Assembly (NCBI GenBank): GCA_045605445.1
Contig: JAZUPZ010000007.1
Span: forward strand, 2,924-66,923
Direction of reading: 5' to 3'
Length of the DNA: 64,000 nucleotides
Source of the DNA: Clostridia bacterium
GTDB taxonomy: Bacteria > Bacillota > Clostridia > RGIG6154
Positions 5,754 through 41,823 of the stretch are shown here, piece by piece. The notes below the pieces were generated by a model. It had not been told where the DNA came from and searched no databases. It worked only from the letters and a program-made list of their open reading frames with translations. Positions within the stretch are counted from its first letter, which is position 1, and every line of letters begins with the position of its first letter. The translations under genes were made by a program, and so were the position numbers.

Positions 5754-5761
5754 GTGGTTTT

Positions 5762-6604: not shown

Positions 6605-6608
6605 AACA

Positions 6609-7064
6609 ATGTCCAAAAAATTAAGGCACAATGCCATAATTAAGCTTATAAATGAGCAGGTTATCGAAACTCAGGGACAGCTTACCCAGAAGCTGATTGA
6701 AATGGGCTATGATGTAACTCAGGCAACCGTTTCAAGAGACATAAAGGAATTAAGACTTGTTAAAATCGCAGACTATGCGGACAGATACAGATATGCAACT
6801 CCCGGCAGAAAAGACGAGGCAGACGTAAGAAGCCGTTACATTGGCGTTTTAAAACACGGGGCGGTTTCCATAAGAGTTGCAATGAATCTTGTGGTAGTAA
6901 AAACAATTGCAGGGTCTGCTCAGGGCTGTGCAATGGCAATAGAAACCTTAGGCTTTGAGGATATAATCGGGGTTATAGCGGGTGACGATACCCTGTTTAT
7001 CGCTCTCGGCTCCGAGGACGAGGCAAGAAGCCTTGTAGAAAAACTGGAAGAGGTAATAGGCTGA
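6609..7064 (+). CDS. argR: Arginine repressor
   Basis: 151 aa with an N-terminal winged HTH and a C-terminal arginine-binding oligomerisation domain (GDDTLF). Confidence 0.85.
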   Translation: MSKKLRHNAIIKLINEQVIETQGQLTQKLIEMGYDVTQATVSRDIKELRLVKIADYADRYRYATPGRKDEADVRSRYIGVLKHGAVSIRVAMNLVVVKTIAGSAQGCAMAIETLGFEDIIGVIAGDDTLFIALGSEDEARSLVEKLEEVIG

Positions 7065-8737
7065 TGCTTAGCAATCTGCATATAGAAAACATCGCAATTA
7101 TCGATAATGTGAATATAGATTTTACCGATGGCTTTCAGGTGCTCACAGGACAAACGGGCGCCGGAAAATCTATTATAATCGACTCTATAAATCTGCTTAC
7201 CGGGGAAAGAAGCTCCCGTGAGCTGGTTCGTACCGGAGCGGAAAAAGGTTTTGTTGAAGGCGCGGTATATACAACTGACAAAAAGGTTTATGAAATGCTC
7301 AACGAGGCGGGAATTTCATACTTTGAGGGAGACCCGCTTATTCTTTCAAGAGAAATAAGCAAAGACGGAAGAAGCGTTGTAAGAATCAATTCAAGAACTG
7401 CAACAACAGGGCTTTTAAAAAGCATTTGCGCAAGAATTATAAATATCCACGGTCAGCACGATAACCAGGCAATTCTTGACGTTTCCTGCCATGGGGAGAT
7501 TCTCGACAGCTACGCAAAAAACGAAGAGCTTCTTAAGGGTTACCGCAGGGAATATAACGAATATAAAAGAATAAAGAACGAGCTGGAATCCGAGGATGAA
7601 GACATTTCCTTAAAGGAACAGAAAAAGGAGTTTCTTGAATTCCAGATTGATGAAATTGAAAAGGCAAAGCTTAAGATTGGAGAAGATGAAGAGCTTTCGG
7701 ACATAAGAAAAAGATATTTAAACAGCGAAAAAATTCTTCTTAATCTTAATGCTTCCTACAGCGCTCTTATGGGCGACGAGGAAAGCCTTGGCGCAAATCA
7801 GCAGATTAAAGCCGCAATCAAGGGAATGCAGGATTTATCCGACCTGGTTGAGGACGCCGACGGGCTTTCAAAAAAGCTTGAGGAAATTTACTATCTTCTT
7901 GACGACGTTTCCGAAACCCTGAGGGATTTAAAGGATGGCGACAATTCTGAAGAGGTTGACATAAACTATATAGAAGAAAGAATCGACCTTATTAACCGTC
8001 TTAAAAAGAAATACGGTTCAACGGTTGAGGAAATTCTTGAAACAAAGGAAAAGCTTGAAGAGGAGCTTCTTGAAATTGAGAACTCCGATGAATATAAAAA
8101 GAAGCTTGAAAAAGAGCTGAAAATTCAGCTTAAAAAAACCTCAGCTCTTGCCGATGAGCTTTCAGAGAAAAGAAAAAAGGCGGGAGAGGAGCTGGCAAAG
8201 CAGGTTCTTGTTCAGCTTAAAGACCTGGAAATGCCAAACGTAACCTTTAAGGTTGAAATTGAAGATGCGCCCCTTTCTTCAAAAGGAAAGGATAAAATTG
8301 AATTTATGATTTCCGCAAATGCGGGCGAGGCGCTTAAGCCTTTAAGCAAGGTAGCCTCCGGCGGTGAGCTTTCAAGAATAATTCTTGCACTTAAAGTTAT
8401 ATTAAGTAAGAACGATTTTGTTTCAACTATGATTTTTGACGAGGTTGACACCGGCGTAAGCGGGAGTGCGGCTCAGAAAATTGCTGAAAAAATAAAGGCT
8501 GTTTCAAAGGAAAAACAGGTTTTTGTTATAACTCATCTGCCCCAGATGGCAGCTTTTGGCGACTCCCACTATCTTATAGAAAAGGAAGCAACGGGCGGCA
8601 AAACCTCATCAAAGGTAACTCTTCTTAATGAAGAGGGCAGAGTGGCCGAAATTGCAAGGCTTTTAAGCGGAAGCGTAATAACAGAAAATGCGCTTAACAA
8701 TGCAAGGGAGCTTATTTCTCTGGGAAAGGATTTTTAA
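7064..8737 (+). CDS. recN: DNA repair protein RecN
   Basis: 557 aa SMC-like protein with a Walker A motif (GQTGAGKS) and coiled-coil middle region. Confidence 0.9.
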   Translation: MLSNLHIENIAIIDNVNIDFTDGFQVLTGQTGAGKSIIIDSINLLTGERSSRELVRTGAEKGFVEGAVYTTDKKVYEMLNEAGISYFEGDPLILSREISKDGRSVVRINSRTATTGLLKSICARIINIHGQHDNQAILDVSCHGEILDSYAKNEELLKGYRREYNEYKRIKNELESEDEDISLKEQKKEFLEFQIDEIEKAKLKIGEDEELSDIRKRYLNSEKILLNLNASYSALMGDEESLGANQQIKAAIKGMQDLSDLVEDADGLSKKLEEIYYLLDDVSETLRDLKDGDNSEEVDINYIEERIDLINRLKKKYGSTVEEILETKEKLEEELLEIENSDEYKKKLEKELKIQLKKTSALADELSEKRKKAGEELAKQVLVQLKDLEMPNVTFKVEIEDAPLSSKGKDKIEFMISANAGEALKPLSKVASGGELSRIILALKVILSKNDFVSTMIFDEVDTGVSGSAAQKIAEKIKAVSKEKQVFVITHLPQMAAFGDSHYLIEKEATGGKTSSKVTLLNEEGRVAEIARLLSGSVITENALNNARELISLGKDF

Positions 8738-12584: not shown

Positions 12585-15539
12585 ATGAAAAAGTTAGTAG
12601 CATTTTTAGTGGTATGCATGATGCTGTTGTCAACAGTACCGGCACTTGCCGACCACGTGAATCCTAATGTTCTTCCCGAAGGTTCTATTGCAAAATATGA
12701 CCAGTACTATGAGGATCTGAACGTTACAAGATACACACCGTGGATCAGACTCTACCACATGGAAACACCTGAAAAGTATGCAAAAGGCGCATACGGCGGC
12801 GAAGGCGGTCAGGTTGTAATGAGCATTGCAGCTTCGCCACTTAACCCCGATTATGTAATTATGGGTACAGATACCTCCGGCGCATGGCTCAGCCACGACG
12901 GCGGTGAAAACTGGATTCTTCTTGATGACAACGTTAACACCTGGGCAGTTCCCGATGTCAAATGGCATCCTACAAAAGAAAACGTAGTTTATATGGTTCA
13001 GGGTAACAGAGGAGGATATTCTGTTAAAACCTATGCTTCAACAGTCGGCGGTCTTTATAAATCAGAAGACGCAGGCTTGTCATGGAAACAGATTTCAACC
13101 CTTGATACGGTTACTCCCGGTAACCAGGCAGAAAACCTTATTAACTTCGACCAGTATGGTAATATTTACTACCTTTCTTCATCAGGTCTTATGAAATCAA
13201 CCGACGATGGCGAAAGCTGGACTTGCCTTGGTAAGCTTGTTGCAGATACAAGCGTAGATGTTGAAGAAGATAATACCGATGCCGATGAAGGCGGATCAGA
13301 TACAGATACAGAAGCAGATGGTAGCGGATCTTCAGTTCCTACAGCAACCTACAGCTTTGTTCCGGGCGATAATGCAGATGAAACCCTTGTTCCCGATGTA
13401 AAAAGAGCTGTTTTCTCAACTTATGTTTCTCCTGACGGACAGACTCTCGTGGTTACACTTTACAGCGGTATGTATATTTCCCGTGACGGCGGTGCTACAT
13501 GGGTAAGAGGCGGCGGAGATACAACAGGTATCAACTGTTACTCAATCGCAGTTGACCCGACAAATGCAAACCACTGGGTTGCAATTTACGCAGGTAATAA
13601 GGCATATACAACAACTGATGCAGGTTACACCTGGCAGTCAATGAATATAGCAACTTATAACAATGGCAAATATTATGCTGCATATGCAAAATTCGGTGCT
13701 CCCAAAGCAGACGGAACTCCAACCTTGTTTGTTATCTTCGGAAATATGAACAAGCCTTTCACCTTTGCTCTTGACGGTACAAGAACCGACTTTAATGCAT
13801 ATCTTGCAGAAAGAGTAACAGGCGGAGACTGGAAGAGACCTACTTTCGTAAATTCTTCTGACAGATTCCTCTACGGTGCTAGCGGTTACACCTGTGAAGG
13901 CTTTGCAGTTTGCGAAAGCGATCCTAACATTCTTTACTTCTCCTTCGGTGACATTCTTTATAAGTCAACCGACGGCGGTCTTACCTTTGAAAAGAAAAAC
14001 TCAGGTTATTCAGGTAACTATGTAAGACAGTTCTATTTTGATAAAAACAACAAGCTCTGGCTTGCATTTACAGATAAGGGACTTGCAGAAACTTCAGAAG
14101 TTTACGACGGTGAAAATCTTCCTACAGGTAAAATGATTGACTACAACGGCACAGCTGCCAGCGTTGTAATCGACCCTAACAATCCTGACCATATCTTCAC
14201 AAACAGAGGCGGCTGGTCATCTCAGACTTTAGTTGAATCAACAGACGGCGGTGCAACATGGAGCACTGTTAAAGATGCTGACGGCAATTCGCTGTCCTGC
14301 AGCTGGTCAATACTTAAATACATCGGTGACAACACCATTATGTCAACCAACTATAAGAGCACAGATAACGGTGCAACCTGGGTAAGACATACAGATGCCG
14401 AAGGTAATAACTACAGTGTTCTTGCAATGAGCAATGTTGACAACAACATTCTTTATTCAACATCAGGTCTTTCTGGTTCTAATCAGTACAAACGTTCAAC
14501 AGACGGCGGTCAGACCTGGAGAACATATTCAATTTCGGGTCAGATAACAGAAGTTTATCCCGATGAATTCGATGCAAACACAGTATGGTTCGGAACATAT
14601 GCGGGACATATGGTTAAAACCACTTTCAGTACTATCACAGGAAATGCTACAAACAGAATAAGAAACTCTGATAACGGAATTCCGCTTATCGGTCAGTATG
14701 ACTATGTTTCTGTTTATGCAATCAAGCAGAATCCGAAAGATAAAAACCACTTTGTTGCAGGCGGTAAGGCAACTCACGCAGGTCTTAAATCCTACGGTAT
14801 TATCGAATCAAAAGACGGCGGTACAACCTGGTATCAGGTAAAAGGCTTCAAGGGCGTTATGAACGTTCAGACTCTTGAATTCTCTCCTGTTTCAACAGAA
14901 GTATTCATCGGAACCTGCTCAAACGGTACTCTCGTTTATGACTATTCAAAATATTCGCCAACAAACAACAGCGTAATTTTTGATATGGATGGGCTTGATG
15001 TTGAAGCTCCCGCGACACTTACAGGTAACTATGGCGATGTTGTAACTCTTCCGGGTGTTGAAGCCGATGCAACATTTAGATTCAACGGCTGGACACAGGA
15101 ATATACAACCTATGATTTCTATGGCAAGCCTACAAAGGTTGTAAAAGAATATGCTCCGGGAGACAGCTTTGTGGTTGAATACACAGATATAACTCTTAAA
15201 GCAAACTATAACTATGTAACAGAAACAGTATTTGAAGTTTCAGAAGACGGCGAAAGCTTTGAAGAAATGCCAAAGCTTAAGAGCGGAATAATCAAAGCAA
15301 CAGCTCCTGTTACAACAACAGGTTCAGCAGTTCCCGTTCTCGGTCTTTATGATATTAACGACCCTTCAAAGGTTATTAAATTCGTAATTGGAGCTCCGGT
15401 TAATGTTGACGGAACACAGCAGGTTGAAGCAACAATCGACCTTACAGGGGTTGACACAACAAATACAATTCTTAAGTATTTCGTTTGGAACAGCCTCGAT
15501 GCGGCAGCTCCGTTGAGAATCGTAGAAGCAATCAAATAA
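12585..15539 (+). CDS. Secreted BNR/Asp-box repeat protein (GH74/sortilin-like beta-propellers) with an acidic linker
   Basis: 984 aa. Signal peptide, then at least 8 SxDxGxTW repeats, a D/E/T-rich linker and a C-terminal beta-rich region. Confidence 0.55.
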   Translation: MKKLVAFLVVCMMLLSTVPALADHVNPNVLPEGSIAKYDQYYEDLNVTRYTPWIRLYHMETPEKYAKGAYGGEGGQVVMSIAASPLNPDYVIMGTDTSGAWLSHDGGENWILLDDNVNTWAVPDVKWHPTKENVVYMVQGNRGGYSVKTYASTVGGLYKSEDAGLSWKQISTLDTVTPGNQAENLINFDQYGNIYYLSSSGLMKSTDDGESWTCLGKLVADTSVDVEEDNTDADEGGSDTDTEADGSGSSVPTATYSFVPGDNADETLVPDVKRAVFSTYVSPDGQTLVVTLYSGMYISRDGGATWVRGGGDTTGINCYSIAVDPTNANHWVAIYAGNKAYTTTDAGYTWQSMNIATYNNGKYYAAYAKFGAPKADGTPTLFVIFGNMNKPFTFALDGTRTDFNAYLAERVTGGDWKRPTFVNSSDRFLYGASGYTCEGFAVCESDPNILYFSFGDILYKSTDGGLTFEKKNSGYSGNYVRQFYFDKNNKLWLAFTDKGLAETSEVYDGENLPTGKMIDYNGTAASVVIDPNNPDHIFTNRGGWSSQTLVESTDGGATWSTVKDADGNSLSCSWSILKYIGDNTIMSTNYKSTDNGATWVRHTDAEGNNYSVLAMSNVDNNILYSTSGLSGSNQYKRSTDGGQTWRTYSISGQITEVYPDEFDANTVWFGTYAGHMVKTTFSTITGNATNRIRNSDNGIPLIGQYDYVSVYAIKQNPKDKNHFVAGGKATHAGLKSYGIIESKDGGTTWYQVKGFKGVMNVQTLEFSPVSTEVFIGTCSNGTLVYDYSKYSPTNNSVIFDMDGLDVEAPATLTGNYGDVVTLPGVEADATFRFNGWTQEYTTYDFYGKPTKVVKEYAPGDSFVVEYTDITLKANYNYVTETVFEVSEDGESFEEMPKLKSGIIKATAPVTTTGSAVPVLGLYDINDPSKVIKFVIGAPVNVDGTQQVEATIDLTGVDTTNTILKYFVWNSLDAAAPLRIVEAIK

Positions 15540-15565
15540 TTTTTGGGATGTAAAAAATGCCCAAA

Positions 15566-15600
15566 TCGCAAAAAGAACCGTGATTTTCACGGTTCTTTTT
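15566..15600 (+). terminator. Rho-independent terminator
   Basis: Hairpin AAGAACCGTGA...TCACGGTTCTT followed by a T-run. Confidence 0.7.
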
Positions 15601-15602
15601 TA

Positions 15603-15715
15603 CTACGAACAAACTTCACCGCTCGACGTACCTTCGTACGCCTTCGGGTATCCCAAAACAAGAAAAATCTTGTTTTGGTTCAGTTTGTCCGTTTTGGTCT
15701 ATTTTTTCCTATCCC
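15603..15715 (+). repeat. Modular intergenic repeat, A-type copy
   Basis: Shares ACAAACTTCACC...CGTACGCCTTCGGG...GGTTCAGTTTGT...ATTTTTTCCTATCCC with the copies at 20077, 61892 and 62105. Its internal hairpin ACAAG/CTTGT is compensated relative to the 20077 copy. Confidence 0.6.
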
Positions 15716-15860
15716 AAAAAACATTGTTCATTCTACATTATTTTTTGCCGTTTTAAAATGACGGGGACCCGTGTGTATTCGGGGTTATTATGTTTCTCAT
15801 GCGGCAGAATGGTTTTTTCGACGGGCTGAAGGCTTTCACCGGAGAATCCGTCTGCCCTGA

Positions 15861-15889
15861 TTGACACAAATTTACAAATAATGTATAAT
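15861..15889 (+). promoter_or_regulatory. Sigma-A-like promoter TTGACA-17-TATAAT
   Basis: Consensus -35/-10 with a 17 bp spacer directly upstream of the 15920 start. The ORF-track ATG at 15881 lies inside the -10 box. Confidence 0.55.
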
Positions 15890-15919
15890 AAATTAAGTAA
15901 ATTTTTCGGAGGAACAAGG

Positions 15920-17239
15920 ATGAAAGGAAAAGTTTTTATAGGCTGGAGCGGTACAAATAAACTTGCATACAAGGTTAAAGCAAGCCTTGAAAAGGAAAAC
16001 TACGAGGGTGTGGTAGGTGGCCAGTCGGGGCAGGATGGCGGGCTTTATGTAGGTGCTGTTGTGCTGAATGAAATCGACGGTTGCAACCAGGCATTGTTTG
16101 TTGTGCAGAAAAAAGAAAATGAAAGAATCAGCAACAATCTTATGTTCGAGCTCGGTTATGCTCTTGCCAAATTCAATGCAAATAAAATTCATGTTGTTTA
16201 CGTTGATATTGATTCCGAGGACAAGGAAATTCCTTCAGACTTAAAAGGAATATGGGCAAGCCATTGCAGTACTGAGGGCGACGAAAAAATAGAAGATGAA
16301 ATTGTTGGCAAGTTCCTTGAAAACCAGAAAAATATAATTCCTGAAGAGAAAATGAGCGTAATCGGTTCTTATTATCATATGAAGGAGCAAATTAAAAAAT
16401 ATGCCTATGCGCCTCATTGCTCAGAGTATGAATTTGCTCAGTATATTCTCTTTTTCTCCCAGGCGGCTTATATGTACAGCAATGAAAAGGATGCTTTAAG
16501 AGCGCTTAAAGAGCTTATGAACCGTCTTCCCAATCCGGCACCGTCTCTTGACAGTGCTGTAAGATTCGCCGTTTGCTATCTTGAACTTTTCCTTTTTGTT
16601 AAAAAGGAGGAGGACCGTCTTTTTATTGACCGTCACGACTTCAGAACCCTTAAACGTAAGCTTAAGAGTATTGAAGAGAAAGTTGAGCCTATGGAAAAGG
16701 ATGATTTTACCAAGTGGTTCCTTGTTTTTATAAACGATACCATAAATTATTCTCATATTCTCTATTCGTACAATAGCGAGCATACCGAAGAAGAAAAAGA
16801 AGAAATTTTAAACAACAGTATTCCTTATGCAGAAAAATGTCTTAAATATTGTGAAGAACTTAAGGAAAACAAGGCAAATGCCCTTTGCTTAGAGCTTTAT
16901 ACGGCGTATATGTACAGAAACTTATCTACGGCATATAAGCAGCTTCCGGAGGGAACTGAAAAATCTCACACATATCTTAACAAATCCTTTGAAGCAAGGA
17001 AAAAGCTTGTGGAATATTATGAAATGCACGATATAAGTACAAAGCTTTTTGACAATTTCGAGCTTGAATACTATCTTGCTCTGAGCGAATGTCTTGAGTT
17101 TGTAACCGATGAGGACGATTTTCTTGATTACAAATACGATTGTGAGGAATACATAAAAAGGGTTAAGGAGCTTAACCGTGAGAAATCTTATTTCATAAAT
17201 AAAATTGAAAGACTTGTTAAACTTTGCCCGGAGGAATAA
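15920..17239 (+). CDS. Protein with an N-terminal nucleoside 2-deoxyribosyltransferase-like (TIR-like) domain and a C-terminal alpha-helical domain
   Basis: N-terminus KVFIGWSG...LMFELGYALA matches the NDT-family FE(L/I)GYA catalytic-Glu motif. RBS GGAGGAACAAGG. The ~330 aa C-terminus is helical with no recognisable domain. Confidence 0.45.
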   Translation: MKGKVFIGWSGTNKLAYKVKASLEKENYEGVVGGQSGQDGGLYVGAVVLNEIDGCNQALFVVQKKENERISNNLMFELGYALAKFNANKIHVVYVDIDSEDKEIPSDLKGIWASHCSTEGDEKIEDEIVGKFLENQKNIIPEEKMSVIGSYYHMKEQIKKYAYAPHCSEYEFAQYILFFSQAAYMYSNEKDALRALKELMNRLPNPAPSLDSAVRFAVCYLELFLFVKKEEDRLFIDRHDFRTLKRKLKSIEEKVEPMEKDDFTKWFLVFINDTINYSHILYSYNSEHTEEEKEEILNNSIPYAEKCLKYCEELKENKANALCLELYTAYMYRNLSTAYKQLPEGTEKSHTYLNKSFEARKKLVEYYEMHDISTKLFDNFELEYYLALSECLEFVTDEDDFLDYKYDCEEYIKRVKELNREKSYFINKIERLVKLCPEE

Positions 17240-17242
17240 TTT

Positions 17243-18034
17243 ATGGAAAAACTGATAATTTTTGCAGATTACGGACTTGACGATGCCGCCGCAACGGTAA
17301 GTATTTTAAAAAAAGCAGAGAAATTTGAAAAAATATATTTCGTTCCCATCGGCGGAAACGTTCCCGTTACAATGTCATATAAAAACTGTCTTCTGCTTCT
17401 TTCTCATATCGGATGTGATGCTCTTGAGAAAATTGTTATAGTTGATACAACAAAAATAAAACAGCCCTCGGAGTATCTGGCAGAAATTCACGGAAAGGAC
17501 GGAATGGGAGATTTCTTTGAAGAAATCGAATGTAACCTTAACGTACGATATACAGACTTTGAGGAGTTTAAAAACGAGCTTGACGGAAGTGAAACCGTTT
17601 TAAGTCTCGGGCCTATGACTTTGGTTAAGGAGATAATGGAAAAACATCCCCATAAGCTTATAATTATGGGAGGCTGTGTAAACGAGGAACCTAATTTTAA
17701 AGGCTATGAATTTAATCACTGTCTTGACAAAGAAGCTTTTTCTTATTGTGTGAAATTTCCTCACAAGGCAATAACTCTTGACACCTGCCGTACGGAAAAA
17801 CTCGATGTAAGAAGAGTTGAAATAAAGGGCGAGGATGTTCATTCAAGAATATTAAAAGCCGACCAGAGGCTCAGCATAACAAGGGGAGAGGCCGGTTGCT
17901 ATGTGTGGGACGATGTTGCGGCTTGTTGCCTTCTTTATCCTGAAAGGTTTGAGGTTAAAGAGGAAATTGACCCATACGGGAATAAAATTTCCAACACCGT
18001 ATATATTTCAGACAAGCTTTATTGGGAAGAATAA
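17243..18034 (+). CDS. Inosine-uridine-preferring nucleoside hydrolase family protein
   Basis: The N-terminal motif IIFADYGLDDAAAT fits the IUNH DxDxGxDDA signature. 4 bp from the upstream gene, so operonic. Confidence 0.5.
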   Translation: MEKLIIFADYGLDDAAATVSILKKAEKFEKIYFVPIGGNVPVTMSYKNCLLLLSHIGCDALEKIVIVDTTKIKQPSEYLAEIHGKDGMGDFFEEIECNLNVRYTDFEEFKNELDGSETVLSLGPMTLVKEIMEKHPHKLIIMGGCVNEEPNFKGYEFNHCLDKEAFSYCVKFPHKAITLDTCRTEKLDVRRVEIKGEDVHSRILKADQRLSITRGEAGCYVWDDVAACCLLYPERFEVKEEIDPYGNKISNTVYISDKLYWEE

Positions 18035-18106
18035 TTTTTAAATTACAACTTTCTGTGTTTTTCTTTATGATAAAAGTTGATAAATTATCAAAAAATTTTG
18101 TAACTA

Positions 18107-18135
18107 TTGAAATTTTGCAAAGGTTATTATATAAT
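18107..18135 (+). promoter_or_regulatory. Promoter TTGAAA-17-TATAAT. A perfect palindrome TTGATAAATTATCAA sits upstream at 18077-18091.
   Basis: Read directly from the sequence. Confidence 0.4.
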
Positions 18136-18205
18136 AGGCGAATAACAAGAAAAAAGTTGAAAAAAGTTTAAGCTTTGTTCTTGAAAAAAGAAAGGGGTTT
18201 GAGAT

Positions 18206-18862
18206 ATGTTCTCAAAAAAGAATAACAATCTGGTTCATACTCTTATTATGGAACAGATAAGTGACATTGAAAACTGCGTTATAAATTTTGACAGCTTTGT
18301 TCGTGCAAACTGTACTCCCGATACATCACCGGAAACTCTTAATGATCTTGCTCAGGCAATCGGAAAAGCAGAGGCTATTGCGGATAATTCTTTAAGAAGA
18401 ATGATTGACTCTTTAGAGGGCGGACTTTTCCTTCCTTCAACAAAAGAGGAAATAATTTCAATTGCAACAAGCTGCGACAGAATTGCAAACAAATGTGAAA
18501 GTATGGCAAAAACAGCCGTTTTCCAGAAATTCACTTTCCCGCAGGAGTTCGCAGGTGAGCTTCTTGAAATCATTGCAATTACCCACAAACAGTTTGAAAT
18601 TCTTGAAGAAAGTATAAGTGGGCTTTTCTCAAATTTTGGAAAAATGCTCAAGGACCACTCAATTCTTGATGAAATCCGTTCAGAGGAAACTAAGATCGAC
18701 GTAATTGAGGAAGGTCTTTACGGAAAAATTTTTGACCTTGATGTTGAGCTGGCAAAGCAAATGCAGATTGCAAACTTTGTTGAAATGATCTGTGATATTT
18801 CCGACATTATTGAAAACATAGCAGACAAAATTCAGATTATGCTCGTTACAAGAAAGGCGTAA
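18206..18862 (+). CDS. DUF47 (PhoU-like, YkaA-type) phosphate-transport regulator-like protein
   Basis: 218 aa all-helical protein adjacent to a PiT transporter, the classic ykaA-pit pairing. Confidence 0.6.
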   Translation: MFSKKNNNLVHTLIMEQISDIENCVINFDSFVRANCTPDTSPETLNDLAQAIGKAEAIADNSLRRMIDSLEGGLFLPSTKEEIISIATSCDRIANKCESMAKTAVFQKFTFPQEFAGELLEIIAITHKQFEILEESISGLFSNFGKMLKDHSILDEIRSEETKIDVIEEGLYGKIFDLDVELAKQMQIANFVEMICDISDIIENIADKIQIMLVTRKA

Positions 18863-18866
18863 AAAG

Positions 18867-19940
18867 ATGATATATTTATTACTTGTGGCAGGGGTTTTTA
18901 TGGGATGGTCCCTGGGCACAATGGACGCTGCCAGCGCTTTCGGCACGGCAGTTGCAACCCGAGTCGTAAGATACAGAACGGCAACGGTTATCATTTCCAT
19001 TTTTGTAATTATAGGTGCTTTTACAGCAGGACATAATAACATAGGCAAGCTTGCGGAGCTTGCAACAAGCAACGAGATAATTGCATCTGTTGAAGATGTG
19101 CAGATAGCTGCAGAAAACAATGAGGTTGATTTGCTTCGTCTGAAGTCAGCCCTTAAGGCGGCAATAATTTTTGCCTGCGCAGGATTTACCGTTTTTGTGA
19201 TGGGGCTTTTCAAGCTTCCCGTTTCCGCAAACCAGGCGATAACCGGCGCAATAATAGGCTGGGGACTTTGCTATGCCGATTATTCCAACCCTGCAATTGT
19301 AGCGGTAAATCTGCCGCAGATAGGGAAATTTGCTTCAACCTGGATTCTTAATCCCCTGGGGGCAGGAATAATTTCATTTATAATAGTAAGCCTGTTTAAC
19401 CGCTTTATAGGAAAACGACTTTCTACTCTGGCTTTTTACGATTCTATTATTAAATTCGGATATATTGCCGCGGGAATTTATGCTTCCTTCAGTATCGGAA
19501 TAAACAGCTCGGCAAACGTTACCGCTCTTTATTTTGATATGGTATACGACAAAACGGGCATTGTTTCAAACCTTATAATAAATCCGAGAATTGCGGCAAC
19601 AATCGGCGGTATTGCCATTGCCATCGGAGTTCTTACATATTCTAAAAAGGTTATGATGACGGTAGGCTCGGGAATTGCCGATATAAGTCAGATGGACGGT
19701 TTCCTTGTGGTTATTGCAATGGCAACAGCGGTGCTCCTTATGGGTAAGGTTATGGGAATTCCCGTATCAAACTCTCAGGCAATAGTAGGCGCCGTAATCG
19801 GAGCAGGACTTACAAGAGGCATAAAACACGTTAACTTCGGCGTATTCAAACGAATTGCCGTAGCCTGGGTAAGCTCGCCAACCGCAGCGGGACTTCTGAC
19901 CTATCTGATAGGGCTTTTAACAAAATTTTACTTTGCTTAA
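18867..19940 (+). CDS. pit: PiT-family inorganic phosphate transporter
   Basis: 357 aa multi-TM protein with a PiT-like motif region (GTMDAASAFGTAVATRVV). Confidence 0.65.
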   Translation: MIYLLLVAGVFMGWSLGTMDAASAFGTAVATRVVRYRTATVIISIFVIIGAFTAGHNNIGKLAELATSNEIIASVEDVQIAAENNEVDLLRLKSALKAAIIFACAGFTVFVMGLFKLPVSANQAITGAIIGWGLCYADYSNPAIVAVNLPQIGKFASTWILNPLGAGIISFIIVSLFNRFIGKRLSTLAFYDSIIKFGYIAAGIYASFSIGINSSANVTALYFDMVYDKTGIVSNLIINPRIAATIGGIAIAIGVLTYSKKVMMTVGSGIADISQMDGFLVVIAMATAVLLMGKVMGIPVSNSQAIVGAVIGAGLTRGIKHVNFGVFKRIAVAWVSSPTAAGLLTYLIGLLTKFYFA

Positions 19941-20003
19941 GGGGGATGTTAAAAAAGTCCGGAACGTCAAAAGGCTGTGTTTTCCCTATGAAAGACACAG
20001 TAA
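19941..20003 (+). repeat. C-type 60 bp repeat immediately after a stop codon. The second copy is inverted at 41756-41816.
   Basis: GGGGATGTTAAAAAAGTCCGGAACGTCAAAAGGCTGTGTTTTCCCTATGAAAGACAC matches the reverse complement at 41756-41816 at about 90% identity. Confidence 0.6.
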
Positions 20004-20029
20004 ATATAAAAAAATTTAACCAAATGTAG

Positions 20030-20068
20030 AAAAACCTCAATTTCTTGAGGTTTTTCCTTGTTTTTATG
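20030..20068 (+). terminator. Rho-independent terminator
   Basis: AACCTCAA...TTGAGGTT followed by a T-run. Confidence 0.65.
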
Positions 20069-20076
20069 CCTTTTGA

Positions 20077-20357
20077 CTACGAACAAACTTCACCTAACTC
20101 CGCGTAGCGTCGCAACCTTCGCTGTTAATTGAGCTTTTGCAAAGCACAAAGTTTACGCTCGGTTGCTCCTTTTCCCCATAAAGTCAATTGACTTTTTGGG
20201 GAAAAGGAAAAACAATGCAAAGAAGCGAAGTTTTGCATTTGTGCAAAACGTAGCAAGTCTGCTTTGTTTTGACGCGCGTTCGGGTTCCCACAAGCATAGC
20301 TTGTGGTTCAGTTTGTTCGTTCCAAACATTTTTTCCTATCCCCTTACGGGGTGAAGC
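20077..20357 (+). repeat. A-type modular repeat copy carrying a ~150 bp internal insertion rich in nested palindromes
   Basis: Same 5' module as 15603 (CTACGAACAAACTTCACCTAACTCCGCGTA) and same 3' module (GGTTCAGTTTGT...TTTTTTCCTATCCCCTTACGGGGTGAAG). The insert includes CCTTTTCCCC-ATAAAGTCAATTGACTTTTT-GGGGAAAAGG. Confidence 0.55.
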
Positions 20358-20476
20358 TGTTTAAAATTAAGTTTTTAAACAGCTTCTTTGTGTTTCTGTG
20401 CAAAAAATGGTACTTTGGTAAAATAGGGGATTGAAATTTATATCCCATGGTGTTAAACTTATACTACAACAGAAAA

Positions 20477-20676
20477 CACGGTTTTGCAGCAGTGCACATC
20501 CGTTTTTTAGAAAACACGGAGAGGGCAGCGAGTCGCTGCCTTGGGTTAGTTACCGGGGAACTTCGTTTCGCATCCGCGAAACGCCTCCCGGCATCGCTAC
20601 GACGAATAATAAATCATAATATGATTAACAAAATTCGCCTCCGCTCGCCGGGATAATATGTGCCGCAAAGCCGTGA
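20477..20676 (+). ncRNA. Putative retron non-coding RNA (msr-msd)
   Basis: a1 (CACGGTTTTGCAGCAGTGCAC, about 20477-20497) and a2 (GTGCCGCAAAGCCGTG, about 20660-20675) form a 13/15 bp inverted repeat bracketing ~160 nt. Inside is a long interrupted hairpin (CCGGGGAACTTCGTTTCGC-ATCC-GCGAAACGCCTCCCGG) plus the GGCAGCGA/TCGCTGCC and ATCATAATATGAT hairpins, directly upstream of the RT. Confidence 0.5.
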
Positions 20677-21773
20677 ACTGTAAAAAAGCAAAGGAGGGGG
20701 AACTGTTGAAAATTATAGGCGGAGCTGTAATTTTTGAGGAATGTGATTCTCATTTTGTTGAAAAGTTTACATTCCCAAAGGCAATGGAAATAGTTCATAA
20801 TTTTATCAGTACAAATTCCCATCCTTTTATTTTTGATACCTATCAGCTTTCTGATTTTATAAACGTAAGCAGAAAAAGGCTTTTTGTGCTTTCCCGCTTC
20901 AGGGAGGAGCACTATAAGGTTTTAAAAGTAATAAAGAAAAACGGGAAATACAGAACCCTTAAAATTCCCGATGAGGAGCTTAAAGATGTTCAGAAAAAAA
21001 TCTTAAGGCAGATTTTGCTTTATTATGATGTTTCTGAATATGCAACGGCGTATGAGAGGGGCTCAACTCTTTATAAAAATGCCGTGGTTCACAAGGGCAA
21101 AAAATATCTTCTGAAAATGGATATTTCCGATTTTTTTGACAGTATAACCTCCGATATGGTTCACGACAAGGTGTTCAACACAAAATATTTCCCAAAGCAT
21201 ATCGGCTCCCTGCTTACTCAGCTTTGCTGTAACGAGGGTTGTCTTCCTCAGGGAGCGCCTTCCTCACCGAAGCTTTCAAACATAGTTATGGCAGACTTTG
21301 ACGGAGCCATAGGAAGATGGTGTTCAAAAAAAGGGGTTTCCTATACAAGATATTGCGACGATTTAACCTTTTCTTCTGATGAGCCTCTTTACAACGTTTA
21401 TGTAAGAGTAAAATCAATGCTTGAGGAAATGGGCTTTGAGGTTAACGAAAATAAAACCGGATTTTTTACCAATGCCTGCCGCCAGAGCGTAACGGGACTT
21501 ACCGTTAACGAAAAGGTGAGGGTTTCAAGGGAGTATAAAAGAAAGCTCCGTCAGGAAATTTACTACACTTTAAAATACGGTCCTTCTGATGTTATCACAA
21601 AAGAGGATAAGAAGGAATTTGTGTTTTTCGGAGAACCGGAGATACAGACTTATATGGACTCACTTATAGGAAGAACGGCTTATGTTCTTCAGATAGAACC
21701 GGCGAATAAAAGCTTTGACGACTTTCTTAAAAAGCTTATAAAGCTGAAAAAAGAACTGAACAGGGAACAATAA
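20658..21773 (+). CDS. Retron-type reverse transcriptase
   Basis: QGAPSSPKLSNIVMADFD and YTRYCDDLTFS (the YxDD box) plus NENKTGFF...VTGLTVNEKVRVSRE align to retron Ec86-type RT motifs. The true start is probably the TTG near 20706, behind the RBS AAGGAGGGGG. Confidence 0.75.
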   Translation: MCRKAVNCKKAKEGELLKIIGGAVIFEECDSHFVEKFTFPKAMEIVHNFISTNSHPFIFDTYQLSDFINVSRKRLFVLSRFREEHYKVLKVIKKNGKYRTLKIPDEELKDVQKKILRQILLYYDVSEYATAYERGSTLYKNAVVHKGKKYLLKMDISDFFDSITSDMVHDKVFNTKYFPKHIGSLLTQLCCNEGCLPQGAPSSPKLSNIVMADFDGAIGRWCSKKGVSYTRYCDDLTFSSDEPLYNVYVRVKSMLEEMGFEVNENKTGFFTNACRQSVTGLTVNEKVRVSREYKRKLRQEIYYTLKYGPSDVITKEDKKEFVFFGEPEIQTYMDSLIGRTAYVLQIEPANKSFDDFLKKLIKLKKELNREQ

Positions 21774-21868
21774 AGCAACAGGCAACGGTAAATTTTATAA
21801 TAAACGGGAATATTGCGTAAAATTCACCCGAAATGTAATAAAATCTACAGAATTTTGACGTTAAAAGG

Positions 21869-21897
21869 TTGACAAATACGCTGTAAAGTGATATTAT
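21869..21897 (+). promoter_or_regulatory. Promoter TTGACA-17-TATTAT
   Basis: Read directly from the sequence, upstream of the small TM ORF. Confidence 0.45.
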
Positions 21898-21928
21898 AAA
21901 GTATATTATTTTCGGAGGTACGGAAAAG

Positions 21929-22168
21929 ATGACAGTTGTAAAATCAAATTTCAACACTTCATCTGAAGATGCAAAAACTTTTGCACCTTGTTCTTGTGCT
22001 GCTGAAACAATGAATAATAGCGTTTTTTCAGGCATTGCTCTTGCAATGTCTGTTTTATTATGCCTTTGCCTTGTTAATGTCCTTAGCATTTATGGCATAA
22101 TTACAGGCATTATTATACTAAACATAATTACAGGAAACAAATATGAAAAGGCAAAGAGTTTAAGTTAA
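21929..22168 (+). CDS. Small 2-TM membrane protein, candidate retron effector
   Basis: 79 aa with two hydrophobic helices (VFSGIALAMSVLLCLCLVNVL and IYGIITGIIILNIITG). 155 bp downstream of the RT. Confidence 0.35.
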   Translation: MTVVKSNFNTSSEDAKTFAPCSCAAETMNNSVFSGIALAMSVLLCLCLVNVLSIYGIITGIIILNIITGNKYEKAKSLS

Positions 22169-22179
22169 TTTTGCAGAGT

Positions 22180-22218
22180 TATGATTTTGACGGTTTTGCC
22201 TTTTCAGGGTAAAACCGT
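22180..22218 (+). terminator. Putative terminator
   Basis: ACGGTTTT...AAAACCGT stem followed by TTTTT. Confidence 0.4.
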
Positions 22219-22238
22219 TTTTGATTGAAGGAGACAAA

Positions 22239-23033
22239 ATGGAAATAATTGATTTTCATGCACATATATATCCCGAAAAAATAGCAGAAAAGGCAGTTTC
22301 AAGCGTTGGCGAGTTTTATAATATTAAAATGGACGGCAGAGGAACGGCAAAAACTCTTATTGAAGAAAACAAAGAGGTTTCTGCTTTTGTGGTTCACTCG
22401 GTTGCGGTTGCGCCGAAAACCGTTGTGGCAATTAACGATTTTATTTCATCAGAATGCGAAAAACACAGCAATTTTTACGGGTTTGGAACAATGCATGCCG
22501 ATTTTGAAAACAAAATAGAAGAAACAAAAAGAATGGTTGAGCTGGGGCTTAAAGGCGTTAAAATTCATCCCGACACTCAGATGTTCAATATGGATGATAA
22601 AAAAATGTTTGAGCTTTACGATTTTCTCAGAGAGGAAAAAATCCCCCTGCTTATTCATTGCGGCGATTACCGTTACGATTATTCTCATCCGAGACGACTT
22701 AAAAAAATTCTCAGACTTTTCCCGGGGCTTGTTGCCATAGGGGCGCACTTCGGCGGATGGTCTATGCACGACCTTGCTCTTGAATACCTGAAAGACGAAA
22801 ATTGCTATCTCGACACATCGAGCTCCTTTTTCGTAATGGGAATGCAAAGGGCTAAGGAGCTTATAAGAATTTACGGCGCCGAAAGAATGGTTTATGGAAC
22901 CGACTTCCCCATGTGGGACGGAAAAACCGAGCTGGAAAGATTTATGAGTATGAATCTTACCGACGAGGAAAATGAATTGATTTTAAGCAGAAATGCTAAA
23001 AAAATATTAAACATTAAGGAGTGTAAAAAATGA
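22239..23033 (+). CDS. Amidohydrolase-2 family metal-dependent TIM-barrel hydrolase
   Basis: MEIIDFHAHIYPE N-terminal HxH motif. RBS AAGGAGA precedes the ATG at 22239. Confidence 0.6.
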   Translation: MEIIDFHAHIYPEKIAEKAVSSVGEFYNIKMDGRGTAKTLIEENKEVSAFVVHSVAVAPKTVVAINDFISSECEKHSNFYGFGTMHADFENKIEETKRMVELGLKGVKIHPDTQMFNMDDKKMFELYDFLREEKIPLLIHCGDYRYDYSHPRRLKKILRLFPGLVAIGAHFGGWSMHDLALEYLKDENCYLDTSSSFFVMGMQRAKELIRIYGAERMVYGTDFPMWDGKTELERFMSMNLTDEENELILSRNAKKILNIKECKK

Positions 23034-24418
23034 AAAAAATCAAAATCACAGACATTACTCTTAAGAAGCTTTCACAGGAACGTGAGACCTCTCTACTTTT
23101 CCGTGAAAAGACAGCTGTTGCCGCTTGTGCAGATGCGTTGGGAGTTGATGCTGTTGAAATAGCTCCTGTAAAAAATGTAAGAGAAGATACCATTATTTAT
23201 AAAACAATTTCCCAGAAGGTTAAAAATGCAGCGGTTGCAATTCCCGTTGGTTTTACAACAGAAGAGGTTGCAGTTGCCTGGGAATGTGTTAAAGAGGCTG
23301 CAAAGCCCCGCCTTCAGGTAGAGGTTCCCGTTTCAACGGTTCAGATGGAATATACATATCATATCAAGGCTGAAAAAATGCTTCTTAAAATTGCAGAGCT
23401 TGTAAAGGCTGCAAAGGAGCTTTGCGACGATGTGGAATTCTGTGCACTCGATGCAACAAGAGCCGATGAGGCTTTCCTTATCGCTGCGGCAAAAGAGGCA
23501 GAAGCACAGGGGGCAGGAATTGTTACAGTGTGCGACGATGCGGGAGCATTTCTTCCCGAAACTGTTGCAGAGCTTGTTTCAAAAGTTAAAGAGGCTGTAA
23601 GCGTTCCTGTTTATGCTCAGGTTTCCGATAAAATCAGCATGGGAGTTGCCTCCTCTGTTGCGGCAATCAGAAAGGGCGTTGACGGACTTAAATGTGCCAT
23701 GGCGGGCAAAGACGTTGTTTCAACAGGCAGACTTTCAGATGCTATGACCGCCTGCACCGCTGAAATTGGCGCAGAAACAAATCTTAACAATACGAAAATT
23801 CATGCAAGCACAGCTGATTTGCTGGCAAGCATTAACCATCAGGATTATGAAACCGACCCCACTGTAAGCGAAAAGAAGAAAATTCTTCTTGATTCAGAAA
23901 GCACTCTGGCTCAGGTAGCTCAGGCGGCTCAGGTTTTAGGCTACGACCTTTCCGATTCCGACTGCGGAAATGTTCACAAAGCCCTTCTTAACATTTGTGA
24001 AAAGAAGGATGCCGTTGGTGCAAAGGAGCTGGAGGCTTTAATTGCAAGCTCCGCTATGCAGGCTCCTTCAACCTACCATCTTGAAAGCTACACAACAAAC
24101 AGCAGTAACCTTTCAAGCTCAATGTCTCAGGTTACCTTAAAGAACGGCGATGAAATCATCTGCGGTGTAAGCACAGGAGACGGCCCTATCGATTCAGCTT
24201 TCAGAGCAATAGAACAGTGTATCGGTCACCACTACGAGCTTGACGATTTCCAGGTTCAGTCGGTTACCGAAGGAAAAGAAGCTCTTGGCTCTGCGGTTGT
24301 AAAGCTCCGCAACAACGGAAAGCTTTACTCGGGCAACGGAATTTCAACCGACATTGTTGCCGCAAGCATAAGAGCATATATAAACGCTCTTAACAAAATA
24401 GTGTTTGAGGAGGCATAA
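23030..24418 (+). CDS. LeuA/homocitrate-synthase-family homolog that has lost the catalytic residues but keeps the C-terminal LeuA allosteric domain
   Basis: The C-terminus (YELDDFQVQSVTEGKEALGSAVVKL...ISTDIVAASIRAYINALNKI) matches the LeuA dimer/regulatory domain. The N-terminal barrel lacks RDGxQ (it has TLKKLSQERE) and lacks HxHND (it has VSDKISMG). Confidence 0.5.
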   Translation: MKKIKITDITLKKLSQERETSLLFREKTAVAACADALGVDAVEIAPVKNVREDTIIYKTISQKVKNAAVAIPVGFTTEEVAVAWECVKEAAKPRLQVEVPVSTVQMEYTYHIKAEKMLLKIAELVKAAKELCDDVEFCALDATRADEAFLIAAAKEAEAQGAGIVTVCDDAGAFLPETVAELVSKVKEAVSVPVYAQVSDKISMGVASSVAAIRKGVDGLKCAMAGKDVVSTGRLSDAMTACTAEIGAETNLNNTKIHASTADLLASINHQDYETDPTVSEKKKILLDSESTLAQVAQAAQVLGYDLSDSDCGNVHKALLNICEKKDAVGAKELEALIASSAMQAPSTYHLESYTTNSSNLSSSMSQVTLKNGDEIICGVSTGDGPIDSAFRAIEQCIGHHYELDDFQVQSVTEGKEALGSAVVKLRNNGKLYSGNGISTDIVAASIRAYINALNKIVFEEA

Positions 24419-41725: not shown

Positions 41726-41760
41726 ACTCGGGTATACCGAGTTCCCACAATTTTTATGTT
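41726..41760 (+). terminator. Rho-independent terminator
   Basis: GGAACTCGG-GTATA-CCGAGTTCC followed by a T-run. Confidence 0.65.
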
Positions 41761-41816
41761 TATCGTGTCTTTCATAGGAGAAAAACAGTCTTTTGACGTT
41801 CCGGACTTTTTTAACA
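41756..41816 (-). repeat. C-type repeat, inverted copy, immediately 3' of the AraC gene stop
   Basis: Its reverse complement matches 19941-20003. Confidence 0.6.
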
Positions 41817-41823
41817 TCCCCTC

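What the first reader, a model, noticed from the sequence alone, without database searches (positions are those of the whole stretch)
20477..22168. Retron: ncRNA with a1/a2 inverted repeats, YCDD reverse transcriptase and a candidate 2-TM effector
The RT has retron-type motifs (QGAPSSPKLSN and RYCDDLTFS) and the short length of a domesticated retron RT. Immediately upstream, the sequences CACGGTTTTGCAGCAGTGCAC and GTGCCGCAAAGCCGTG form a 13/15 bp a1/a2 pair bracketing about 160 nt that contains a long interrupted msd-like hairpin. An independently promoted 79 aa two-TM protein follows the RT, an architecture reminiscent of Ec48-type retrons with a 2-TM effector. The upstream NDT-like/IUNH pair could alternatively be the effector module, separated by the DUF47-PiT genes. 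Retrons are little explored in Clostridia, and this one is embedded among repeat elements of the modular A and C families.
Basis: partly seen in the sequence, partly recalled or inferred. Interest (0 to 1): 0.7.

Follow-up and report, generated by a model that had tools for sequence, protein, structure and literature searches.

The report
Stand-alone Ec107-like retron, no effector
This is a genuine retron (a structured non-coding RNA plus its reverse transcriptase) of the already described Ec107-like lineage common in gut Clostridia, but the small membrane protein proposed as its toxin is an ordinary neighbouring chromosomal gene.

Summary
The sequence features are real. Window 20477-21773 holds a retron: an msr-msd RNA gene (a1 20477-20491, invariant G20492, a2 20661-20675), then a 355-aa reverse transcriptase (RT) with NAxxH, VTG and YCDD motifs. 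The RT scores best against PADLOC RT_Ec107-like (2.9e-113). It matches solved retron RTs far better than group II intron, DGR or Abi RTs.

The RNA structure is supported by covariation in 47 relatives: 46 of 55 pairs show compensatory changes. A covariance model built only from Clostridial relatives finds the msr-msd of E. coli retron Ec107.

The effector idea fails. The 79-aa two-TM gene has no homolog beside any of 80 related RTs. In two related genomes it sits in the same operon context with no RT. Window 19941-21863 is a strain-specific insert carrying only the RNA and RT. The TIR-like/IUNH pair is a separate two-gene module found elsewhere without an RT.

No neighbour is conserved across the family. 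This matches published descriptions of clade 2 Ec107-like retrons as stand-alone cassettes, mostly in gut Bacillota. Verdict: a new member of a known kind, of modest interest. What it does without an effector is unknown.

The parts
19941..21863 (+). Strain-specific segment that carries the retron: about 530 nt of hairpin/repeat-rich non-coding DNA, then the ncRNA and the RT. It lies between backbone genes PiT (ends 19940) and the 79-aa gene promoter.
   Evidence: blastn: window 18065-19940 matches L081 3044-4922 at 84%, and window 21864-24248 matches L081 5936-8330 at 83%. The segment between is unrelated; L081 has an AP_endonuc_2 gene there.
20431..20459 (+). Promoter-like site (TTGAAA, 17 nt spacer, TG-TAAACT) that would start the msr-msd-RT transcript about 10-15 nt before a1. 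It is preceded by a terminator-like hairpin at 20353-20386.
   Evidence: Consensus scan only. Function is inferred.
20477..20491 (+). a1, the 5' arm of the terminal stem of the ncRNA.
   Evidence: Pairs with 20661-20675 in the MFE fold. In the family, 14 of 15 pairs of this helix show compensatory changes and 92.5% of cells are paired.
20492..20492 (+). Candidate branching (priming) guanosine, directly 3' of a1 in the motif A-G-Y-G.
   Evidence: A20491 and G20492 are invariant in 47 sequences. The covariance model aligns this G with G1869 of the E. coli Ec107 locus. Its priming role is inferred, not shown.
20498..20542 (+). msr region with two hairpins: 20498-20520, and 20522-20542 with the invariant core GCGAGTCGC.
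   Evidence: Helices 2 and 3 are 85% and 95.5% paired with compensatory changes. The same GGCGAGTCGC hairpin is present in Ec107 and in the Pragia locus.
20551..20660 (+). Predicted msd (template for msDNA, copied from 20660 leftwards). It has a variable hairpin at 20564-20583 and a long interrupted hairpin at 20586-20653 with a conserved tip AATCAY...RTGATT. Predicted msDNA is roughly 105-110 nt.
   Evidence: Fold. Helices 5-8 are 81-99.6% paired with compensatory changes. The left boundary is inferred by analogy with Ec107 geometry and is approximate.
20661..20675 (+). a2, the 3' arm of the terminal stem.
20706..21773 (+). Retron reverse transcriptase, 355 aa from TTG 20706 (RBS 20691-20700). 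Motifs are NAVVH, the DISDFF catalytic Asp, YCDD and VTG. The first ~45 residues are an N-terminal extension conserved in the Oscillospirales subfamily.
   Evidence: Pfam RVT_1 7.6e-25. PADLOC RT_Ec107-like 2.9e-113. PDB Ec86 RT 1.9e-38 against group II RT 1.4e-8. Foldseek top 18 hits are all retron RTs. 38% identity to Ec107 RT, E 7e-73. Alignment.

Best explanation
Window 20431-21773 is a two-component ('stand-alone') retron of the Ec107-like branch of retron RT clade 2.

Inferred mechanism, from established retron biochemistry:
1. A promoter-like site at 20431-20459 drives one transcript carrying msr, msd and the RT gene.
2. The RNA folds so that a1 (20477-20491) pairs with a2 (20661-20675).
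3. The RT binds the msr hairpins, including the invariant GCGAGUCGC stem-loop.
4. It uses the 2'-OH of G20492 as primer and copies the msd leftwards from G20660.
5. The product is a branched RNA-DNA molecule with a roughly 105-110 nt msDNA carrying two hairpins.

Shown here:
- The RT is a retron RT of the Ec107-like kind.
- The RNA has the retron architecture and is under selection for that structure.
- The cassette is a 1.9-kb strain-specific insert with no third gene.
- Neither the 79-aa 2-TM gene nor the TIR-like/IUNH pair belongs to it.

Inferred, not shown:
- msDNA is actually made.
- The cassette serves as a phage or mobile-element sensor whose output depends on a partner that is not encoded next to it. 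Its patchy presence among close relatives and its occasional WYL-regulator neighbours in related loci point towards an accessory, defence-like role.
For: RT identity:
- PADLOC best hit RT_Ec107-like 2.9e-113, then RT_III-A.
- Solved retron RTs score 1e-38 to 1e-27, against 1e-8 for a group II RT. The best 18 Foldseek matches are all retron RTs.
- NAxxH, VTG and YCDD are conserved. YCDD is the Ec107 variant of the catalytic box (PMC6868368).
- 38% identity to Ec107 RT.

RNA:
- Fold z = -4.6.
- RNAalifold finds 33 of 40 pairs with compensatory change.
- On a sequence-only MAFFT alignment, 85.7% of cells are paired against 38-44% when partners are slid, and 0 of 500 shuffles reach the observed values.
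- Model R1, trained on Clostridial sequences only, matches the E. coli Ec107 pyrE-RT spacer full length (44.9 bits, E about 1e-9). It also matches 78 of 80 related loci on the RT strand (76 directly upstream of the RT) and none of five control loci.

No effector:
- No neighbour cluster is shared by more than 13 of 80 loci.
- The next gene downstream is on the opposite strand in 33 of 74 loci.
- Domains of the 41 co-oriented downstream genes are heterogeneous, and no retron effector HMM matches them.
- The insert boundaries exclude the 79-aa gene.

Literature: stand-alone (msr-msd)-RT cassettes in a branch of clade 2 (PMC7736814). clade2_Ec107like is 93% Bacillota, host-associated, and lacks accessory modules (10.64898/2026.05.14.725207).
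Against: - No msDNA or expression data exist.
- The promoter is only a 9/12 consensus match.
- a1/a2 has one A/C mismatch.
- The variable hairpin (helix 4) could not be evaluated on the MAFFT alignment (39.9% paired).
- A biological role for an effector-less retron has not been demonstrated for any member, so the 'sensor with an unlinked partner' step is conjecture.
- No terminator-like site separates the RT stop from the 79-aa gene, so read-through co-transcription cannot be excluded.
Confidence: 0.87

Rival explanations
1. Tripartite type IV-like retron: the 79-aa two-TM protein (21929-22168) is the membrane-disrupting effector held in check by RT-msDNA, as in Retron-Eco6 (Ec48).
For: It is adjacent, on the same strand, and has two hydrophobic helices. 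No terminator-like site lies between the RT and this gene.
Against: - No homolog in 80 related RT loci.
- Small TM ORFs downstream are not recurrent: 12 of 75 loci, mostly implausible ORFs.
- Orthologs in L081 and L082 occupy the same position upstream of Amidohydro_2 with no RT.
- The backbone homology and the gene's promoter resume at 21864.
- The RT is Ec107-like/III-A-like; no type IV RT model appears among the 25 best PADLOC matches shown.
Confidence: 0.03
2. Split retron system whose effector is the upstream TIR-like (15881-17239) plus nucleoside hydrolase (17243-18034) pair, acting across the DUF47-PiT genes. This would be analogous to the NDT-type effectors of type II retrons.
For: The TIR-like PF10137 domain (2.2e-11) and IU_nuc_hydro (3e-19) are nucleotide-directed enzymes. 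Both the pair and the retron are absent from the syntenic region of L081.
Against: - No homolog of either gene within 6 kb of 80 related RTs.
- The pair is conserved as an adjacent two-gene unit in five unrelated contexts with no RT within 7 kb, and R1 finds no ncRNA there.
- The pair is separated from the retron by 1.9 kb of conserved backbone.
Confidence: 0.04
3. Decaying or silent retron remnant with no current activity.
For: There is no effector. There is one mismatch in a1/a2. The cassette is embedded among intergenic repeats.
Against: - The RT ORF is intact and has every invariant residue of the family alignment.
- The AlphaFold model is confident, mean pLDDT 87.
- The ncRNA scores 144.6 bits against the family model, within the range of other members.
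- An RBS and a promoter-like site are present.
Confidence: 0.05
4. The RT belongs to another class (group II intron, DGR, Abi/DRT) and the upstream inverted repeats are coincidental.
For: None beyond generic RVT_1 membership.
Against: - Sequence and fold searches rank retron RTs 10 or more orders of magnitude above group II, DGR, Abi and DRT RTs.
- The retron-specific NAxxH and VTG motifs are present.
- The upstream RNA covaries as msr-msd and is homologous to that of Ec107.
Confidence: 0.01

Closest known systems
Retron-Eco5 (Ec107) of E. coli, located between pyrE and slmA/ttk (L083)
   Same: - The RT is the best-matching HMM family, 38% identical, with the same YCDD box, NAxxH and VTG.
- The ncRNA has the same layout: a1, then A-G-Y-G, a hairpin, the GGCGAGTCGC hairpin, the msd hairpins and a2. 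It is detected by a model trained without it.
- There is no dedicated effector (PMC7736814).
- It sits as a clean replacement of intergenic DNA with no mobility genes (compare).
   Different: - The window RT has about 31 extra N-terminal residues relative to Ec107. These form a beta-hairpin plus a long helix, with high pLDDT, conserved only in the Oscillospirales subfamily.
- The host phylum differs.
- The msd sequence is unrelated apart from its architecture.
clade2_Ec107like retrons of gut Bacillota (Mestre et al. 2020, clade 2 orphan branch; 2026 SPIRE survey)
   Same: Same RT lineage, same ncRNA model type (Ec107_like), Bacillota and host-associated, and no recurrent accessory gene. My 80-locus analysis reproduces this independently.
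   Different: Nothing substantive. The window locus is another member, at most 57% identical to any other RT in the databases searched.
Type III-A retrons (PRTase-like effector, e.g. Retron-Eco11)
   Same: Sister RT lineage: RT_III-A models are the second-best hits, 5e-92.
   Different: No PRTase-like or winged-helix partner lies next to the RT or among the 54 window proteins scanned with PADLOC.
Type IV retron, Retron-Eco6 (Ec48), with a 2-TM effector
   Same: Only the superficial gene order: RT followed by a small two-TM ORF.
   Different: The RT lineage is different. The TM gene is not conserved with the RT and belongs to the chromosomal backbone.

Membership tests
Retron (general) | RT with the YxDD catalytic box plus the retron-specific NAxxH (region X) and VTG (RT7) motifs | tested here: met
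   NAVVH, YCDD and SVTGLTVN are present and conserved in 26 homologs. The motif definitions come from PMC7736814 and PMC6868368.
Retron (general) | RT more closely related to retron RTs than to group II intron, DGR or Abi/DRT RTs | tested here: met
   phmmer against PDB: Ec86 1.9e-38, GsI-IIC 1.4e-8, Drt2 2.6e-7. Foldseek ranks 1-18 are retron RTs. PADLOC gives 71 retron RT models, the best at 2.9e-113. No full phylogeny was built.
Retron (general) | ncRNA next to the RT whose ends (a1/a2) pair and enclose msr hairpins and a long msd hairpin | tested here: met
   Fold; RNAalifold; pair counts with controls; model R1 gives a single window hit at 20470-20685, 144.6 bits.
Retron (general) | Conserved guanosine at the 3' end of a1 that primes DNA synthesis | tested here: inconclusive
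   G20492 is invariant in 47 sequences and aligns with G1869 of Ec107. Its branching role cannot be shown computationally.
Retron (general) | Production of msDNA (branched RNA-DNA) | not testable with these tools
   Needs nucleic-acid preparations from the host or from heterologous expression.
Clade 2 Ec107-like stand-alone retron | RT scores best against the Ec107-like profile | tested here: met
   RT_Ec107-like 376 bits against 306 bits for the next model, RT_III-A. 38% identity to Ec107 RT over 283 aa.
Clade 2 Ec107-like stand-alone retron | ncRNA homologous to the Ec107 msr-msd | tested here: met
   R1, trained on 47 Clostridial sequences only, hits L083 1847-2053 in the pyrE-RT spacer, full length, 44.9 bits. 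The GGCGAGTCGC hairpin and the AGYG motif are shared. The published Ec107_like covariance model itself was not available to me.
Clade 2 Ec107-like stand-alone retron | No dedicated accessory/effector gene linked to the RT | tested here: met
   The insert 19941-21863 holds only the ncRNA and the RT. There is no conserved neighbour in 80 loci.
Type IV retron (Ec48-like) | A two-TM protein encoded just downstream of, or overlapping, the RT and conserved together with it | tested here: not met
   A 2-TM ORF is present 155 nt downstream, but it has no homolog next to any related RT. Its orthologs occur without an RT.
Type IV retron (Ec48-like) | RT of clade 3 / type IV lineage | tested here: not met
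   No type IV RT model is among the best 25 PADLOC matches shown; the top matches are Ec107-like, III-A and II-A.
Type II retron (NDT effector) | NDT-like protein with a C-terminal DNA-binding domain adjacent to the RT | tested here: not met
   The only NDT/TIR-fold gene is 3.4 kb upstream behind backbone genes. It is not linked to related RTs and occurs independently.
Type III-A retron (PRTase effector) | PRTase-like protein, with or without a winged-helix partner, adjacent to the RT | tested here: not met
   No such gene is in the insert. There are no PRTase_III-A hits among the 54 window proteins at E<=1e-5.

The most novel reading that the evidence does not exclude
The cassette may be a fully autonomous two-component system. 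In this reading the RT-msDNA complex itself, or together with an unlinked housekeeping factor, produces the phenotype. It could do so by sequestering or releasing a host protein through the sequence-conserved msd hairpin tip (AATCAY...RTGATT), or through the lineage-specific N-terminal extension of the RT. That would be a mode of retron action without any toxin partner.

A related possibility comes from L037, where the ncRNA is followed by a MoxR-like AAA ATPase, a DUF2201 metallopeptidase/VWA protein and then the RT. Some members of this lineage may therefore use a so far undescribed effector pair, which this locus has lost or never had.
Probability: 0.15. Interest if true: 0.7.

Novelty: new member of a known kind. 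Interest (0 to 1): 0.25.

Why it matters
The locus adds one more well-delimited example of an effector-less retron. It has unusually clean evidence that nothing else came with it: a 1.9-kb insert, absent from a relative whose flanking DNA is 83-84% identical.

Stand-alone Ec107-like retrons are reported as one of the most frequently detected retron groups in gut Bacillota, yet nobody knows what they do. A compact, precisely bounded cassette like this one is a convenient construct for testing msDNA synthesis and phage defence. It could also serve as a small retron for genome editing in Gram-positive hosts. On its own it does not change what is known about retrons.

Tried and rejected
- An Rfam scan of 15000-24000 found no retron RNA family, only a chance mir-129 hit at E 0.038.
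- The repeat finder did not report a1/a2 because the arms share no exact 6-mer. Support comes from folding and covariation instead.
- A 56-nt R1 hit in L081 (4942-4997, E 0.011), at the position syntenic to the insert, looked like a possible a1/a2 scar. On reading it is a plain terminator hairpin.
- The variable hairpin (helix 4) could not be assessed on the MAFFT alignment because it is out of register (39.9% paired). I dropped it from the model.
The host is inferred only as an Oscillospirales-like Clostridium from its relatives.
- A PADLOC scan of 54 window proteins gave only generic ATPase, PNP and HTH hits, with no retron effector model.
- The DUF47-PiT operon next to the retron is tempting because Ec107 is induced by phosphate starvation. 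But only one other locus of 80 has a PiT gene nearby, on the opposite strand, and terminator-like hairpins intervene. I treat it as coincidence.
- Searches of phage and plasmid collections found one close relative, on a 4.7-kb virome fragment, and none on plasmids.
Full report
**Observation.** The reported features are in the sequence.
- The ORF 20658-21773 contains LPQGAPSSPKLSN and YTRYCDDLTFSS.
- CACGGTTTTGCAGCA (20477-20491) is complementary to TGCCGCAAAGCCGTG (20661-20675). There are 13 Watson-Crick pairs, one G-U and one A/C mismatch.
- The minimum-energy fold of 20470-20685 closes on this stem. It contains two 5' hairpins, a short hairpin at 20564-20583 and a long interrupted hairpin at 20586-20653. 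Energy is -77.1 kcal/mol, z = -4.6, and no shuffle of 200 folds as well.
- A terminator-like hairpin (20353-20386) and a promoter-like site (20431-20459) precede a1. A near-consensus promoter (21869-21897) precedes the 79-aa ORF.
- The RT most likely starts at TTG 20706, behind AAGGAGGGGG. All homologs begin in register there, and ATG 20658 would overlap a2.

**The RT is a retron RT of the Ec107-like kind.**
- Pfam gives RVT_1.
- Against PADLOC models the best hit is RT_Ec107-like (2.9e-113, 376 bits). RT_III-A (5e-92) and other retron types follow.
- Among solved structures, retron RTs (Ec86 1.9e-38, Ec83, Ec67, Ec78, Kva2) score far above a group II intron RT (1.4e-8) and Drt2 (2.6e-7).
- An AlphaFold model (pLDDT 87.4) matches retron RTs in Foldseek ranks 1-18. 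Group II, Abi-P2, DRT and DGR RTs come after.
- The retron-specific NAxxH and VTG motifs and the YCDD box are conserved. YCDD is the known Ec107 variant of the box (PMC6868368).
- I recovered the reference Ec107 locus from an E. coli genome: pyrE, a 297-nt spacer, a 319-aa RT, then slmA. The window RT is 38% identical to it, E 7e-73.
- The window RT has about 31 more N-terminal residues than Ec107. They are predicted as a beta-hairpin plus a long helix and are conserved only among the Oscillospirales relatives.

**The RNA is a conserved msr-msd.**
- The RT has 887 homologs at E<1e-20, and none is above 57% identity.
- Eighty genomic loci were fetched, mostly Oscillospiraceae, Acutalibacteraceae and Ruminococcaceae MAGs, plus Lachnospiraceae and one Pragia.
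- A sequence-only MAFFT alignment of the upstream regions of 47 loci gives an RNAalifold consensus in which 33 of 40 pairs keep pairing through changes on both sides.
- I then named a fuller structure of 55 pairs. On it, 85.7% of cells pair against 38-44% when partners are slid by 1-3 columns. 46 pairs show double changes, and no shuffle of 500 reaches any observed measure.
- The a1/a2 helix covaries at 14 of 15 pairs.
- A20491 and G20492, directly 3' of a1, are invariant, as is the core GCGAGTCGC of the second msr hairpin.
- Covariance model R1 was built from these Clostridial sequences only. It finds one site in the window (20470-20685, 144.6 bits). It finds a full-length match on the RT strand in 78 of 80 loci and none in five control loci. 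Of the 78 matches, 76 lie directly upstream of the RT; in L037 the match lies 2.5 kb upstream and in L070 about 300 nt upstream. The model also finds the pyrE-RT spacer of E. coli Ec107 (L083 1847-2053, 44.9 bits, E about 1e-9 to 5e-11 depending on search size).
- In that alignment the window's G20492 falls on Ec107 G1869, in the shared motif AAUAGCG / GCAGUG. From memory of Herzer et al. 1992, which I did not re-read, the Ec107 branch point is the 18th residue of the msr. That fits G1869 if the RNA starts at C1852.
- By the same geometry the window msDNA would run from 20660 to about 20551, roughly 105-110 nt. This is inference.

**The 79-aa two-TM gene is not part of the retron.**
- It has six homologs at 68-82% identity, but none in any of the 80 RT loci.
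- Small hydrophobic ORFs are not a recurrent feature downstream of related RTs.
- In two related genomes its orthologs lie directly upstream of the same Amidohydro_2 / HMGL-like / AMP-binding / aminotransferase genes as in the window, with no RT nearby.
- blastn shows window 18065-19940 and 21864-24248 collinear with L081 at 83-84%. Window 19941-21863 is replaced in L081 by an unrelated AP_endonuc_2 gene.
- The backbone therefore resumes five bases before the -35 box of the 79-aa gene. The strain-specific insert holds only about 530 nt of hairpin/repeat DNA, the ncRNA and the RT.

**The TIR-like/IUNH pair is also independent.**
- The 452-aa protein has an N-terminal PF10137 TIR-like domain, and the next gene is an IU_nuc_hydro.
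- Neither has a homolog within 6 kb of any related RT.
- In five other places the two genes are adjacent in varied contexts with no RT within 7 kb and no R1 hit. One homolog is a fusion of the two domains.
- The pair is a module in its own right.

**No effector is conserved in the family.**
- All-against-all clustering of ORFs within 4 kb of the 80 RTs gives no cluster in more than 13 loci.
- The next gene of at least 90 aa downstream is on the opposite strand in 33 of 74 loci.
- The 41 co-oriented downstream genes carry 59 different Pfam families, mostly housekeeping. The only recurrent ones are WYL (4) and Sel1 (3), and no retron effector model matches.
- The window's other 54 proteins give only generic PADLOC hits.
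- This agrees with the literature. Mestre et al. 2020 describe stand-alone (msr-msd)-RT cassettes in the Ec107 branch of clade 2. A 2026 survey finds clade2_Ec107like mostly in Bacillota (178 of 192) and host-associated. It scores the lineage 'absent' for recurrent accessory architecture, and the Ec107_like RNA model is among its most frequently detected.

**Mechanism and limits.** The msDNA-synthesis steps are inferred from established retron biochemistry. What an effector-less retron does is not known for any member. The patchy presence among close relatives and the WYL regulators next to 13 of 80 relatives lean towards an accessory, defence-like role with an unlinked partner. This is conjecture.

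**Verdict.** The Ec48-like and NDT/IUNH effector readings are rejected. The locus is a new member of a known, already surveyed lineage.

Noticed in passing
L037 3286-7065 (also L003, L010, L020, L025, L032, L034): In L037 the family ncRNA (R1, 105.5 bits, 3286-3525) is followed on the same strand by a MoxR-like AAA ATPase (3514-4659), then a DUF2201 metallopeptidase/VWA protein (4613-5983), and only then the RT (6001-7065). The same AAA plus DUF2201 pair lies just upstream of ncRNA-RT in six other loci, on several RT branches. This may be an undescribed accessory module for part of the Ec107-like lineage. It is absent from the window.
   Followed up: partly
window 15881-18034: A TIR-like (PF10137) 452-aa protein and an inosine-uridine nucleoside hydrolase-like 263-aa protein form a conserved adjacent two-gene module. 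It is found in five other genomic contexts, one of them next to prophage genes, and once as a fusion. It gives only weak PADLOC hits. It is a candidate nucleotide-targeting defence or salvage module, independent of the retron.
   Followed up: partly
L034 682-837 and 2023-2195: One RT gene has two ncRNA matches: one upstream (76.9 bits) and a stronger one downstream of the RT (100.6 bits). Several loci (L025, L026, L027, L032, L068, L070) carry a shorter ncRNA variant of about 160 nt with a truncated msd.
   Followed up: no
related loci L001, L003, L012, L017, L026, L033, L041, L065, L068, L070 and others: A WYL/WCX-domain regulator lies within 4 kb of the RT in 13 of 80 loci, and directly downstream on the same strand in about five of them. 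Recurrent small genes (Sel1 repeat, Cys_rich_CPCC, PAD_porph-like, MPG-like) also cluster around some RTs. This suggests variable islands.
   Followed up: partly
window 19941-20476, with copies at 41751-41821, 15597-15620, 61913-61936 and 62126-62149: The non-coding DNA on the left side of the retron insert contains short repeat elements that recur elsewhere in the window. The 71-nt stretch 19942-20012 is inverted at 41821-41751 (90%). There is also a 42-nt perfect-ish palindrome at 20167-20208 and several terminator-like hairpins. Their relation to the insertion is unknown.
   Followed up: no
window 18206-19940 next to 20431-21773: The retron lies immediately downstream of a DUF47(PhoU_div)-PiT phosphate transporter pair. 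E. coli Ec107 is reported to be induced by phosphate starvation. Only one other related locus has a PiT gene nearby, so this is probably a coincidence.
   Followed up: partly
window 20586-20653 and alignment A2 columns 192-208: The tip of the msd hairpin is conserved in sequence across the family (AATCAY-loop-RTGATT), beyond what pairing alone needs. It could be a protein-recognition site on the msDNA.
   Followed up: no
MT838960.1 (phage collection hit H9): One family member (50.7% identity over 95% of the RT, including the N-terminal extension) lies on a 4.7-kb 'Bacteriophage sp.' contig from a human faecal virome. No close relative was found on plasmids.
   Followed up: no
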